From assembly GCA_963805625.1 (NCBI GenBank), contig CAWDVE010000017.1, positions 160,001-224,000 of the forward strand: DNA of 64,000 nt, read 5' to 3'. Position 1 is the stretch's first letter; each line of letters starts with the position of its first letter. Positions 7,232-16,419 of this stretch are shown piece after piece. The DNA is from an uncultured Candidatus Rokubacteria bacterium (GTDB lineage: Bacteria; Methylomirabilota; Methylomirabilia; Rokubacteriales; DASRDR01). The position numbers were made by a program, and so were the translations under genes. A model generated the notes under the pieces. It made no database searches, had not been told where the DNA came from, and saw only the letters and a program-made list of their open reading frames with translations.

Positions 7232-10200
7232 TCAGCTGACCGCGCCCCAGGCCCGGACGTGCTCCTCGACCCGCTCCACCCAACGCGGGACGCCGAGCGC
7301 GCGGAAGCGCCGGGCGGCCTCGCCGACATGCGCGGCCGTCGCGCTCGCGTCGCCGCGCGCGTGGGCGAGCATGGCCAGGTCGAACCAGGTTCGGGCGATC
7401 TCGAACTCGGCTCCCACGGCCTCGAAGGCGCCGAGCGCTTCGTGGAGATGGTCCTGAGCATCGCCGAGCGCACCCCGGGCCTGCGCGATGTGGCCGAGCG
7501 CCCGCTCCGCCCACCCGATGCCCTGCGTCGAGCCGGTGGCCCGGGCGTGCTCGAGTCCCTGGCTGGCCAGCTCGAGCGCCGTCTCGAGCCGGTGGGCCCC
7601 CCGGTGCGCCTCGGCCAGGAATGCCGAAAACCAGGCCTGGGGCGAGCGGAAGCGGAACTGGTCAAGCAATCGCAGCGCCTCTTCGAGGCGCGTCATGGCC
7701 GGAGCGAGGTCCCCGCGTTCGAGCCAGGCGAAGCCCAGCCAGCCGAGCGCCAGGGCGGTGTTGAGCGGATCCGGCGAGCGCGTCAGCGCGTCTTCGCAAC
7801 TGCGAATGCCGGCTTCCAGGTCCCCCCGGCACACATGGACTACACCGCTCGCCCAGGCGGCCGAGCTCGCGACCTGTGGGTCACCCACCTCGGTGCCGCG
7901 CGCCATGGCCTGGGCCTGCGCAGCCAGCGCTGCGTCGAACTCGCCGAGGAGCGCGTGGTTCAGCCCGACCGCCCAGTGCGCCGGGCCGATCCACCAAGAC
8001 TCCCCGGCGCGCTCGAGCAGGGCGACGGCCCGCCGGCCGTGCTCGAGGCCATCCCGCGGATGTCCCGACATAACGTCGTGCTGGGCGAGGACGTAGTGGA
8101 TCTTGCCCCGCGTCGCGTCGTCGTCGCATCGCTTGGCTTCCGCCAGGCCCACCTCCAGGTGGTGCGACGCCTGCCGCTGGTCCGCGAGGAAGAGATAGCT
8201 CCGCCCGAGCAGGAGGTGATAGGGGCCGGCCAGACGCGGATCACCAAGGCTCTCGAGGGAACCCTGATGGCGAAGCAGCAGGGAAACGATGTCCTGCAAG
8301 GCGCCCAGCGGCGTCATCGAATAGGCCTGCAGGAGAACGAGCTCGAGGCGGCGTCGATCCTGCTCTGCTGGCGGGAGCCGCTCGACATGGGTGCGGGCCT
8401 CCTCGAGAATCCGGACAGCCTCCGCGAGGGCGTGCGCGCTGACCGCCTGGTTGGCGAGGCGCGTGAGGTAGAGCACGGCCTTGGCCGCCTCATCCGTCCG
8501 GCCATAATGATGCGCGAGCCGATCGTAGACCTCTCCCAGCCGGTCGGCGTACACGGCCTCGAGCGCCCGGGCGATCGCGCCGTGGAGCACGCGGCGGCGG
8601 GCCGGCGGCAGGCTCTCGTAGGCGACGTCACGTGTCAGGCTGTGGGTGAACGCGCAGAGCGGCTCGCCACCCCCCGACTTCGCGTGGAGGAACTCTAGGC
8701 GCATGAGCTCCCGGAGGTTGGAATCCAGCTCTCCCTCCCAGACGGCGTGGAGGAGCGCGAGCGGCACTTCCTGTCCGACGACGGCCGCCGTTTGGAGCAG
8801 ACGGCGCGGCTCGTCGGGCAGGCGGTCGATCCGGGCGAGCAGCACCTCCTGGATGGTGTCGGGCACTGCGAGGCCCGGGGCGGCCTCGACGGCCCCGTCG
8901 ACCACCCGCGACAACTCCTCCAGGAAGAAAGGGTTCCCCTCCGCCTTCTCGAGGATGACCTCGGCGACCCGGTCGGACACCGCGTCGGTGCGGCGAACCG
9001 ACCGCACGACGCTCAGGCTGTCCTCCCGCGACAGCGGCGGAAGCGCGACCTGGGTGACGTACGAGCGGTCCATCCACGGCGCCCGGTAACCCGGCCGATA
9101 GGTCACAATGCACATCGCTGGCGCTCCGGCCGCGCTGTCCATCAGCGTGGTCAAGCACTCCTCCGACGTGGAGTCGATCCAGTGGAGGTCCTCGATGACG
9201 AACAGGATGGGCCGCCGACGCGCCCCCTGCAGCACCAGCTGGCGCAGCGCCTCGAAGGTCCGCGCCTTGACGGCCGAGGTCGTGAGCGCGGCGAGCGCCT
9301 CCGTGCCCTCCGAGATGCCGAACAGACGGAAGACGTACGGGACCGCCCCGGCTGGCTCGATCCCGACTTCCTGGACCCCCGTCCGGATCTTGCCGGCGAT
9401 GACGTCCTGGCTCTCACCCTCGGTGATGCGGAAGTTCGACCGGAGGATGTCGAGAATCGGAAAGTACGGGATGGCGCTGGCGTAGGACTGGCACCACCCC
9501 TCCAGGAACGTCACCCGTCGCTCGGGCTCGCCGAGCAGCCGCTCGCGAAACTCGTGGAGCAGTCGCGACTTCCCAATGCCGGCTTCGCCGAGCAGCCCGA
9601 CGACCTGACCGTGGCCTCTGAGCGCGTCCTCGAGACGGCTCCACAGGAGCCCGAGCTCGCGGGCGCGACCCACGAACATCGGGGCGCGCCGGCCGCGCCC
9701 CGAGCCCGGTCGCTCGGTCGCCACCAGCCGATGCACGGGCCCCGCCGCGCCGGCGCCGTCGACCGGGGCGAGGTCGAAGTGGCGCGCGAGGAAGGCCGCC
9801 GCGGCCTCCTCGACGAGGATCGCGCCTGGCTCGGCGAGTCCGAGGAGCGTGTCGAGCACCGTCCACGCCTCACGCTTGCCATCCAGGTCGACCTGGGCTC
9901 CGCCCCGGGAGGACCCGACGAGCACCCGCCGGACGGCGATTCCCGAGTGGACCCAAATGCCTGCTCCCTCGCCGCCGCTGGCCCGCTCCGCGGCCTTGTG
10001 CACCGCCGTCGCCGCCAGCGCGGCCCGTTGCGGGGCGTCCTCGATCGGCTCCAGCCCGAACGCCGCGACGATGCCCGTCGGGCTCATCTCCTCGATCCGT
10101 CCGCCGAACGTCTGGATCTTCTCGACCAGGGTCTCGAGCGCGCGGCTCGGACTGAACCCGGGATCGGCGTCGGCTGGCAGGACGAGCGCGCTCCGCAGGA

Positions 10201-15691: not shown

Positions 15692-16419
15692 CGAGAGAGA
15701 CAGCCCGGCGGGCGGGTCAAGCGCTCCTCTGGTGGGGTGTCGTCGGCGGGCCGATTCTCGCGTGGTGGCCCGGGGCGCTGCGGCTGCCCGCGCTCTGGGC
15801 GGTCGTCGTCCTCGGCGTGCTGGCGAACGCGCTCCAGCCGTCCTACCGATTCCGGGACACCGCCCGGTCACCGGAGGATGGCGGCACATTCCGTCAGATC
15901 ATGCTCACCGTCTATGGGAGCCAGGCGGCCGCACTCGTCGAGCTCGTCCTCCGCCGGCCCGCGGGGCTGCCCTTCGACGCGCTGGGCATGGGCGCCCTCC
16001 TGGCGATGGGCGCGGGCCTCGCCCTCCGGACGTGGGCGATCGCCACGCTCGGCGGCTGGTTCACGCTGCGCGTGGCCATGGAACCCGCGCAGCGCCTGGT
16101 TGACGAGGGGCCGTACCGCCTGATGCGCCATCCGAGCTACGCGGGAGCATTCCTCGCCTTCGTCGCGAGTGCGGTCCTGCTGCGCGCGTGGGTGGCGACG
16201 GCCCTGGGCGCGGTGGCCCTCTACTTGGCCTTCCGGCGCCGGATCCACCACGAGGAGCGAGTGCTGGCGGCGGGCCTGCCTGGCTACCGGGCCTACATGA
16301 CGCGGACGGGTGCGCTTTTGCCGCGTCTCGGACCCTGGTCCGCCCGGCGGGCGCCGGCCACCGAGCGGGCTAGTCCCGGAAGTGGCAGGCCACCCGGTGG
16401 CCGGAGGCGCCCTCCTTGA
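15688..16419 (+). CDS. Isoprenylcysteine carboxyl methyltransferase (ICMT/PEMT)-family membrane methyltransferase
   Basis: [40 protein letters not shown]; the GTG overlaps the GH3 stop. Confidence 0.85.

What the first reader, a model, noticed from the sequence alone, without database searches (positions are those of the whole stretch)
7232..16419. Candidate undescribed system: sigma54/STAND-controlled lipid-modification operon built around a bacterial GH3 ligase
Seen: a consensus TGGCAC-N5-TTGC promoter (11550) faces away from a giant sigma54 activator and precedes six closely spaced genes, namely LPG-synthase-TM, AUR1/PAP2-like, heme-oxygenase-like, enolase-superfamily, GH3 and ICMT-like methyltransferase. 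Established: plant GH3 enzymes adenylate carboxylic acids and join them to amino acids; AUR1/SMS-type PAP2 enzymes transfer phospho-headgroups; LPG-synthase-TM proteins handle modified lipids; ICMT/PEMT proteins methylate membrane substrates. Inference: together they make an acyl-amide lipid or lipid signal that is oxidised or isomerised, headgroup-modified, methylated and translocated on cue. I do not know a characterised pathway with this gene set. This copy is decaying, so the working system would be in relatives.
Basis: partly seen in the sequence, partly recalled or inferred. Interest (0 to 1): 0.85.

Follow-up and report, generated by a model that had tools for sequence, protein, structure and literature searches.

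The report
Diiron oxidase–enolase–GH3 amide cassette, decayed
This soil bacterium carries a broken copy of a widespread, apparently unstudied three-enzyme cassette (a di-iron oxidase, an enolase-family enzyme missing one of its two usual catalytic bases, and a GH3 amide ligase) that likely makes an unsaturated fatty-acid–amino-acid conjugate; the two membrane-lipid genes in front are a separate module, found joined to it only in close relatives.

Summary
The genes, promoter and decay are real, but the six-gene pathway is not a conserved unit. All six genes occur together only in this Rokubacteria-like genus (7 other genomes). The conserved core is oxidase (HDO)–enolase–GH3: adjacent in 20 of 20 genomes with the orthologous GH3, 12 of which lack the LPG/PAP2/ICMT genes. 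LPG(+PAP2) also occurs without the core. The enolase has Arg at the second catalytic Lys (119/119 close homologues; 139/150 distant ones), which argues for one-base elimination, not racemisation. In other lineages the same enolase+GH3 pair takes an OlsE-like hydroxylase or a Hydrolase_4 instead of the HDO; full-length HDO–enolase and hydrolase–enolase fusions exist. Without GH3, the enolase sits with an acyltransferase, FadL and sensor proteins. Best reading: hydroxylation, dehydration and amidation give an α,β-unsaturated acyl-amino acid, carboxyl-methylated here. The chemistry is inferred and the product unknown. Closest known: the GH3 ornithine-lipid synthase OlsH (93–98 bits against a 620 cut-off, separate clade). 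The window's HDO and GH3 are pseudogenes; independent contigs confirm the lesions. This scan noted the same core and activator family before on other DNA.

The parts
7232..11374 (-). Giant sigma54 activator: AAA+ bEBP, Fis HTH, STAND ATPase, TPR (1380 aa, intact)
   Evidence: Pfam; motifs; five other near-full-length paralogues at 46-52% identity in the genome
11550..11564 (+). sigma54 -24/-12 promoter TGGCAC-N5-TTGC
   Evidence: 2 matches against 0.04 expected; present before LPG in L001-L010, L013, L016, L032 and L350-L355, with or without the core
11669..12763 (+). LPG_synthase_TM (flippase-like) membrane protein without a synthase domain; front module
   Evidence: PF03706 103.6 bits, TIGR00374; orthologue in 17 of 251 phylum genomes
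12792..13379 (+). PAP2_3 (AUR1-type) membrane phosphatase/phosphotransferase; front module, promiscuous neighbour
   Evidence: PF14378 53.5 bits; FPSMH and HYLVD motifs; 80 loci, beside TatT-TRAP, B12 radical SAM, Aas
13393..13899 (+). Heme-oxygenase-like dimetal oxidase (HDO), CADD-like; pseudogene (183-bp deletion after 13784); core
13887..15029 (+). MLE-subgroup enolase with K169/K171, D197, E223, D248, Arg272 in place of the second catalytic Lys, and E326; reading frame intact; core
   Evidence: AlphaFold pLDDT 94
15042..15691 (+). GH3 acyl-acid amido synthetase, pseudogene (~1,044-bp deletion, stop at 15390, frameshift at 15480); 564 aa when intact; core
15688..16419 (+). ICMT-family integral-membrane carboxyl methyltransferase; genus-level accessory that sits where other copies have a small 3-TM protein or an LCM carboxyl methyltransferase
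   Evidence: PF04140 71.5 bits; 4a2n E 3e-10

Best explanation
The locus is a decayed copy of a conserved HDO–enolase–GH3 cassette that likely makes an α,β-unsaturated N-acyl amino acid: the di-iron HDO is predicted to hydroxylate a carboxylic (probably fatty) acid at the β carbon, the Arg-enolase would remove water with its single base, GH3 would join the acid to an amino acid through an acyl-adenylate, and the ICMT would methylate the free carboxylate. Shown: gene content, co-occurrence, fusions, active-site residues, decay. From family knowledge: GH3 forms amides through adenylation; enolase-superfamily enzymes remove the proton α to a free carboxylate; racemisation needs two Lys bases, OSBS dehydration one. 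Inferred: the substrates, the order of steps, and that the double bond lies on the acyl half, which I prefer over the amino-acid half. In this genus the cassette sits behind an activator–promoter–LPG–PAP2 unit and is probably co-transcribed with it; LPG and PAP2 are not needed for the core chemistry.
For: (1) HDO-enolase-GH3 are neighbours in 20 of 20 phylum genomes with the orthologous GH3 (one has a Sel1 gene inserted) and in a planctomycete (L280). (2) Intact copies keep GH3 motifs TSGTTxxPK, ASEG, GLYRYDLND and six invariant HDO ligands in 121 sequences. (3) Enolase R272 aligns with the second catalytic Lys of dipeptide epimerase 1jpm. It is Arg in 119/119, 89/90 and 139/150. Passages in PMC12006748 and bioRxiv 2022.03.03.481873 state that this Lys is a base in racemisation but only a cation-pi partner in OSBS dehydration. 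E326 aligns with the Glu of chloromuconate cycloisomerase 4m0x, and the epimerase DxD is absent. (4) The oxidase slot is swappable. A membrane hydroxylase, best hit OlsE (162 bits), often fused to GH3, lies by the enolase in 41 of 80 metagenomic loci, with GH3 in 69 of 80. A Hydrolase_4 takes the slot in L130 and in Planctomycetota. (5) Full-length HDO-enolase (P0258, P0266) and Hydrolase_4-enolase fusions (P0288, P0308, P0313) exist, suggesting both feed the enolase. (6) In 15 of 21 Desulfobacterota loci the same enolase sits, without GH3, beside a lipid-A-type acyltransferase, often with FadL, and a GAF kinase or HD-GYP sensor: a fatty-acid context that favours the acyl half. (7) Two unrelated carboxyl methyltransferase folds follow GH3: ICMT here, LCM in L280; an LCM also adjoins L177. 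(8) 46 of 48 enolase-linked GH3s form one clade apart from OlsH-like GH3s.
Against: No activity is shown for any member. The characterised HDO reactions listed in PMC13108848 (part 1 and passages) are C-C cleavage, desaturation, N-oxygenation and rearrangement; plain C-β hydroxylation is not among them. The nearest solved enolases (2p88, 3jva, 1jpm) are annotated or recalled as acting on N-acylated amino acids, which favours the amino-acid half. OlsE hydroxylates C4 of ornithine (PMC12971839, section 6), which is not β. Ten of 150 distant representatives keep Lys at 272, and the second-shell K275 linked to racemase activity is invariant. 17 of 32 Planctomycetota enolase loci had no GH3 in the stretch read. 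No ferredoxin or reductase was recognised beside the HDO in the loci annotated.
Confidence: 0.38

Rival explanations
1. Same three enzymes, other order: GH3 first makes an N-acyl amino acid, the oxidase hydroxylates the amino-acid side chain (as OlsE does), and the enolase eliminates water to give an N-acyl dehydro-amino acid, like the stieleriacines but by another route.
For: Nearest structures by profile are 2p88, 3jva and 1jpm, recalled as N-succinyl-amino-acid racemase and dipeptide epimerases. The hydroxylase variant's best hit is OlsE and it is fused to GH3. R26 is invariant in GH3-linked enolases (22/22 HDO, 13/13 hydrolase, 20/20 hydroxylase) but in only 5/15 acyltransferase-linked ones. 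N-acyl dehydrotyrosines exist (PMC12479983, passages).
Against: The enolase occurs without GH3 among fatty-acid genes, and Hydrolase_4-enolase fusions suit release of a free acid for the enolase. The stieleriacine paper has no 'GH3' or 'enolase' in its main text.
Confidence: 0.22
2. The oxidase desaturates (or oxidatively cleaves) the substrate and the enolase acts as a one-base isomerase or cycloisomerase, shifting a double bond or closing a lactone or lactam; GH3 conjugates the product.
For: HDO desaturation and C-C cleavage are documented (PMC13108848). E326 matches the cycloisomerase Glu, and 4m0x is the top phmmer hit for P0057.
Against: It does not explain why a hydrolase or acyltransferase can replace the oxidase.
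Confidence: 0.15
3. One reading: all six genes build one membrane lipid that is oxidised, headgroup-modified by PAP2, methylated and flipped by the LPG-TM protein.
For: Tight co-directional operon kept in 7 other genomes at 57-96% identity. A PAP2-family gene also lies in another GH3 cluster type (L134-L136). PAP2 neighbours are mostly lipid genes.
Against: 12 of 20 genomes with the core have no LPG orthologue, and 8 of 16 other genomes with LPG lack the orthologous GH3. HDO, enolase, GH3 and ICMT were found in 0 of the 67 PAP2 loci outside L001-L010, L013, L016 and L032. The core is lost or decayed while LPG-PAP2 stay (window; L009, L032). pN/pS for the window's LPG and PAP2 is 0.20 and 0.12 against L002 (few sites).
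Confidence: 0.1
4. The enolase is still an N-acyl-amino-acid racemase or epimerase that uses another residue (Arg272, His21 or Glu326) as second base, giving an N-acyl-D-amino acid.
For: Closest HMMs and structures are racemases and epimerases; K275 is invariant; 10/150 relatives have Lys272.
Against: Scores are far below cut-offs (DgcA 130/400, L-Ala-D/L-Glu epimerase 96/343). DxD is absent. Position 301, where a His base could lie, is not conserved (Q/H/L/M).
Confidence: 0.08
5. A conjugation or detoxification route for an outside aromatic or plant acid: oxidise, aromatise or dehydrate as OSBS does, then conjugate as plant GH3.12 does.
For: In 9 of 12 family-f2 loci a dedicated divergent sigma54 activator with an unknown N-terminal domain precedes the core, which suits induction by a ligand; the one-base enolase resembles OSBS.
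Against: No chorismate, men or cat genes were recognised among the neighbours annotated; the variable partners are lipid enzymes.
Confidence: 0.07

Closest known systems
OlsH/OlsI(/OlsG, OlsE) ornithine-lipid pathway of Singulisphaera acidiphila (PMC12493201, parts 1-5 of 9 read; PMC12971839, passages and section 6 part 1)
   Same: Bacterial GH3 with the three nucleotide-binding motifs; operon with a methyltransferase; one variant carries an OlsE-like hydroxylase, another an α/β hydrolase.
   Different: GH3 scores 93-98 bits on NF052613 (cut-off 620), whereas OlsH-like GH3s in the same phylum score 385-403. Separate clade. No OlsI. An Arg-enolase and an HDO are present, which the OlsH operon lacks.
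MLE subgroup of the enolase superfamily: dipeptide epimerases, N-succinyl-amino-acid racemases, OSBS, (chloro)muconate cycloisomerases
   Same: Fold, KxK base and D/E/D metal ligands; Glu at the end of strand 8 as in cycloisomerases.
   Different: Arg for the second catalytic Lys; no DxD; own signature H21, R51, Y141; below every NCBIfam cut-off.
HDOs: CADD/pABA synthase, UndA, BesC (PMC13108848 part 1 and passages; PMC9522330 passages)
   Same: Three-His/three-carboxylate ligand set; CADD is the closest structure (E 3.5e-5).
   Different: No conserved Tyr in residues 18-29, where CADD has its sacrificial Tyr27 (mapped by eye); TIGR04305 33.5/200; no folate genes seen; fused to or beside an enolase.
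Legionellol cluster GH3 lpg2225 (PMC5640695, passages)
   Same: Bacterial GH3 suspected of attaching an amino acid to an acyl chain in a secreted lipid.
   Different: PKS/FabH context; no enolase or HDO in its gene table.
DSF (RpfF/RpfC/RpfG) and 3-OH-PAME fatty-acid signals (recalled, not checked in papers)
   Same: 2-enoic or methyl-esterified fatty acids sensed by kinases and HD-GYP proteins; the GH3-less loci have FadL and GAF kinase or HD-GYP genes.
   Different: RpfF is a crotonase acting on acyl-ACP, not an enolase; no homology tested.

Membership tests
GH3 acyl-acid amido synthetases | Three nucleotide-binding motifs (intact relatives) | tested here: met
   TSGTTAEPK, ASEG, GLYRYDLND in P0005/P0007; plant GH3 structures E 9e-28
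GH3 acyl-acid amido synthetases | Motifs present in the window's own copy | tested here: not met
   ~1,044-bp deletion removes all three; stop and frameshift follow
GH3 acyl-acid amido synthetases | ATP-dependent amide formation | not testable with these tools
   needs an assay
OlsH lyso-ornithine-lipid synthetase | NF052613 score over 620, OlsH clade | tested here: not met
   93-98 bits; separate clade from the GH3s scoring 385-403
OlsH lyso-ornithine-lipid synthetase | OlsI O-acyltransferase in the operon | tested here: not met
   no α/β hydrolase in the HDO loci; the Hydrolase_4 of L130 has no OlsI hit at E 1e-5, while the hydrolase of enolase-less L141 does
Dipeptide epimerase / N-acyl-amino-acid racemase | KxK base and Asp/Glu/Asp metal ligands | tested here: met
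   K169, K171, D197, E223, D248 invariant in 119
Dipeptide epimerase / N-acyl-amino-acid racemase | Second catalytic Lys at the end of strand 6 | tested here: not met
   Arg272 in 119/119, 89/90, 139/150; aligned to 1jpm NIK
Dipeptide epimerase | DxD motif at the end of strand 8 (motif recalled) | tested here: not met
   EGS against DFD in 1jpm and 3q45
Muconate cycloisomerase / OSBS | Curated HMM cut-off and cat or men gene context | tested here: not met
   TIGR02534 128/335; OSBS models 76/288 or lower; no such neighbours recognised
HDO superfamily | 3His/3carboxylate ligand set (intact relatives) | tested here: met
   E77, H88, E144, H175, D179, H182 at 1.00 in 121 sequences; five align directly with CADD. 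The window copy lacks four.
CADD pABA synthase | Sacrificial Tyr27 and folate-pathway context | tested here: not met
   no conserved Tyr at 18-29 (mapped by eye); TIGR04305 33.5/200
sigma54 enhancer-binding proteins | Walker A/B, GAFTGA-type loop, HTH, -24/-12 promoter, rpoN | tested here: met
   GETGVGK, GAFTDA variant, FLDEV
sigma54 enhancer-binding proteins | This activator drives this promoter | not testable with these tools
   inferred from conserved divergent layout
ICMT/PEMT methyltransferases | RHPxY and EE SAM-binding motifs, Pfam over cut-off | tested here: met
   PF04140 71.5/24; alignment to 4a2n. Equivalog NF040696 only 63.5/160; substrate unknown.
AUR1/IPT1-type PAP2 phosphotransferases | Phospho-headgroup transfer rather than phosphatase activity | tested here: inconclusive
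   PF14378 53.5/27 and catalytic His motifs; no solved-structure hit at E 1
MprF aminoacyl-PG synthase | Cytoplasmic tRNA-dependent synthase domain | tested here: not met
   only PF03706 over 364 aa

The most novel reading that the evidence does not exclude
The Arg-enolases are an unrecognised family of 2-enoic-acid-forming dehydratases at the heart of a fatty-acid signalling system spread over at least four phyla. An oxidase, hydrolase or acyltransferase supplies a 3-hydroxy acid; the enolase dehydrates it; GH3 conjugates it to an amino acid, as JAR1 does for jasmonate, and a carboxyl methyltransferase may esterify it. Each lineage has its own receptor: a divergent sigma54 activator with an unknown N-terminal domain acting on a variant TGGCAC-N5-GTG promoter in Rokubacteria, or GAF kinases and HD-GYP proteins with FadL in Desulfobacterota.
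Probability: 0.15. Interest if true: 0.85.

Novelty: new variant of a known kind. Interest (0 to 1): 0.55.

Why it matters
Only one bacterial GH3 is biochemically characterised in the papers I read, and its authors call the others' functions open. This cassette defines a separate GH3 clade tied to an uncharacterised enolase family, and about a dozen HDOs have been characterised out of more than 10,000 (PMC13108848). It offers three testable enzymes and possibly new reactions for both the HDO and enolase superfamilies. The exchange of a soluble HDO, a membrane hydroxylase and a hydrolase in one slot constrains the chemistry. The window's own copy is dead; work should use intact loci such as L116, L112 or L280.

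Tried and rejected
Six-gene unit: rejected by co-occurrence. Assembly artefact as cause of the lesions: rejected. Relaxed selection in the window's broken genes: pN/pS against L002 (HDO 0.38, GH3 pieces 0-0.27, enolase 0.21, ICMT 0.27) rests on too few sites to show it. The 'longer' HDO search gave 4 proteins; three I read (P0251, P0253, P0254) look like deletion chimeras and were not counted as fusions. Enolase-family search at E 1e-62 found 0 of 201 genomes in the phylum of G255 and 1 of 401 in that of G253; these are samples, with only some candidates scored. One search resampled the phylum and added nothing. No plasmid match for the enolase at E 1e-20. No RNA holder listed. The small 3-TM protein has no Pfam family and only unnamed Atlas clusters; it was not found in the window's genome; no structure was obtained. 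The enolase model could not be compared by fold search, so Arg272's position rests on sequence alignment. Literature: ten searches listed no paper describing an HDO/enolase/GH3 cluster. Only listed rows were seen, the library lacks most subscription papers, and I saw no supplements (the OlsH paper's tree and accession lists could include these GH3s). My gene caller is a heuristic that missed or truncated some genes, so counts rest on tblastn unless stated.
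Full report
Observation. A 1380-aa sigma54 activator with STAND and TPR domains (11374-7232, minus strand) faces away from TGGCAC-N5-TTGC at 11550 (2 matches in the window against 0.04 expected). 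Six tightly packed genes follow, and the genome has an rpoN. The closest named records are Rokubacteria/Methylomirabilota. Against L002 (95% nt), the HDO has lost 183 bp holding four of six metal ligands, and GH3 has lost about 1,044 bp with all three nucleotide-binding motifs, then gained a stop and a frameshift. Contigs from public runs carry these lesions, so the copy is a real pseudogene. LPG, PAP2, enolase and ICMT keep open frames.

The unit of conservation. Among 251 genomes of the phylum, 20 others have the orthologous GH3 (E below 1e-150). All 20 have HDO-enolase-GH3 side by side (19, G229). Eight of the 20 also have the giant activator, LPG and PAP2, and seven have ICMT. The other 12, all in family f2, lack them in the stretch read (some contigs are short, 4.5-11 kb) and have no LPG orthologue in the genome search. 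Conversely, 8 of 16 other genomes with the LPG orthologue lack the orthologous GH3 (several are incomplete). In L009 and L032, activator-promoter-LPG-PAP2 run straight into the downstream ABC genes. The PAP2 family is promiscuous: in the 67 of 80 loci outside L001-L010, L013, L016 and L032 it lies near TatT (18), a B12 radical SAM enzyme (14), Aas or other AMP-binding genes (13) or LPG (6), and never near HDO, enolase, GH3 or ICMT. The window thus joins a front module to a core cassette. The giant activator has five near-full-length paralogues in this genome; four of six copies face a -24/-12 site.

The core keeps sigma54 control elsewhere. In 11 of the 12 f2 loci, a variant site TGGCAY-N5-GTG[AGT] lies 58-68 nt before the HDO match. 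I derived the pattern from these same sequences, but the background is 0.0007 per 150 nt. A TGTAYA-N16-TGTCYA pair lies upstream in 8 of those 11. Nine loci have a divergent ~510-aa GAFTGA activator whose N-terminal domain has no known family. A small 3-TM protein of unknown family follows GH3 in nine.

The enolase. It has the MLE-subgroup KxK and metal ligands, but the Lys at the end of strand 6 is Arg: 119 of 119 close homologues, 89 of 90 in my neighbourhood set (one in five metagenomic sequences kept, those under 300 aa dropped), and 139 of the best 150 library representatives, with 10 Lys and 1 His. It aligns with the NIK lysine of 1jpm. Passages in PMC12006748 and bioRxiv 2022.03.03.481873 say this Lys is a general acid/base in racemisation, while only the first Lys acts in OSBS dehydration. 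The epimerase DxD is replaced by EGS, whose Glu matches that of a cycloisomerase. I infer a one-base elimination or isomerisation of a free carboxylate.

Partners beyond the phylum. With the enolase profile: 32 of 251 genomes in the phylum of G251 (Planctomycetota by the title of L067), 21 of 201 in that of G252 (Desulfobacterota/Binatia), 1 of 401 in that of G253 and 0 of 201 in that of G255. Of 54 neighbourhoods read, 17 have GH3, 15 a Hydrolase_4, 3 a fatty-acid hydroxylase and 1 an HDO. Of 80 metagenomic loci seeded with the hydroxylase-type enolase, 69 have GH3, 41 the hydroxylase and 25 the small membrane protein, many on short contigs. That hydroxylase's best NCBIfam hit is OlsE (162 bits, cut-off 475). 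Full-length HDO-enolase and Hydrolase_4-enolase fusions exist. In 15 of the 21 Desulfobacterota loci, by my reading with Pfam on representatives, the enolase lies beside a lipid-A-type acyltransferase, often with FadL, a B12 radical SAM enzyme or patatin, and a GAF kinase or HD-GYP sensor; only 1 of the 21 has GH3. Enolase-linked GH3s form their own clade (46 of 48, FastTree 0.96, midpoint root) apart from OlsH-like ones. In the planctomycete L280, HDO-enolase-GH3 is followed at once by an LCM carboxyl methyltransferase, the counterpart of ICMT here.

Mechanism. The recurring partners handle acyl groups. A reading that covers oxidase, hydrolase and acyltransferase partners is that each supplies a β-hydroxy (or β-acyloxy) acid that the Arg-enolase turns into an α,β-unsaturated acid. 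GH3 then amidates it, and in this genus ICMT methylates the amino acid's carboxylate. I give this 0.38. The same chemistry on the amino-acid half gets 0.22, since the nearest solved enolases act on N-acylated amino acids (functions partly recalled) and OlsE modifies a head group, though at C4. Desaturation plus isomerisation gets 0.15, the obligatory six-gene lipid pathway 0.10, racemisation 0.08 and conjugation of outside acids 0.07. Against the preferred reading, plain C-β hydroxylation is not among the HDO reactions in the review passages I read, and no activity is measured.

Known and new. It works like the OlsH route (GH3 joins a free fatty acid to an amino acid; PMC12493201) but is not OlsH: 93-98 bits against 620, another clade, no OlsI. 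The HDO is not a CADD-type pABA synthase, and the enolase fits no curated family. Ten literature searches listed no description of this gene set (see Tried and rejected; supplements not seen). Earlier notes of this scan saw the same core (e1-9804469, e1-6627362) and the activator family (e1-3112826, e1-6405348) on other DNA; they are not independent evidence, and e1-6627362 prompted my fusion search. Verdict: a real, uncharacterised variant of GH3-dependent acyl-amide biosynthesis with an unusual enolase; the window holds a dead, locally extended copy. Interest 0.55.

Noticed in passing
L112-L115, L120, L123-L125, L127-L129, upstream of HDO: Conserved variant sigma54 site TGGCAY-N5-GTG[AGT] (G-T-G instead of TTGC at -12) in 11 of 12 loci, with a TGTAYA-N16-TGTCYA pair upstream in 8 and a divergent ~510-aa activator of unknown sensing domain in 9.
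   Followed up: partly
L308-L327 (e.g. L309:2692-9315, L311, L322): GH3-less Arg-enolase loci in Desulfobacterota: lipid-A-type acyltransferase, FadL, GAF kinase or HD-GYP sensor with a shared unannotated N-terminal region, B12 radical SAM enzyme, patatin; looks like a fatty-acid signal synthase, importer and receptor.
   Followed up: partly
L134-L136: Another GH3 cluster type with AurF/ferritin-like diiron proteins, fatty-acid desaturase or hydroxylase, 2Fe-2S ferredoxin, SnoaL-like protein, amidohydrolase and a PAP2 gene; no enolase.
   Followed up: partly
window 3-1663 (+) and G000:C17:155556-159575: A second giant activator just left of the window faces its own -24/-12 site and a B12 radical SAM gene; this radical SAM family lies near PAP2 in 14 of 67 other PAP2 loci, so LPG-PAP2 may belong with it.
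   Followed up: partly
L138-L146: OlsH-like GH3 (385-403 bits for the two scored) next to an α/β hydrolase (OlsI hit for the one scored) in Methylomirabilota genomes: a probable OlsHI-type amino-lipid pathway outside planctomycetes.
   Followed up: partly
L137:4113-6195; runs X1 and X4; P0251, P0253, P0254: Independent decay of the cassette: a deletion from the activator to the GH3 end in L137, a joint 15438 to 13327 in two runs, and HDO chimeras in the protein collection.
   Followed up: no
window 22875-22889 (+): Second perfect -24/-12 site, before a 261-aa gene at 22956; the downstream genes were not annotated.
   Followed up: no
L177, L198, L199: Cytochrome P450 and a 2-oxoacid-dehydrogenase-type acyltransferase domain (plus LCM methyltransferase in L177) precede the hydroxylase-GH3-enolase cassette.
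   Followed up: no
window 4157-5563 (+): 468-aa ORF without a Pfam hit.
   Followed up: no
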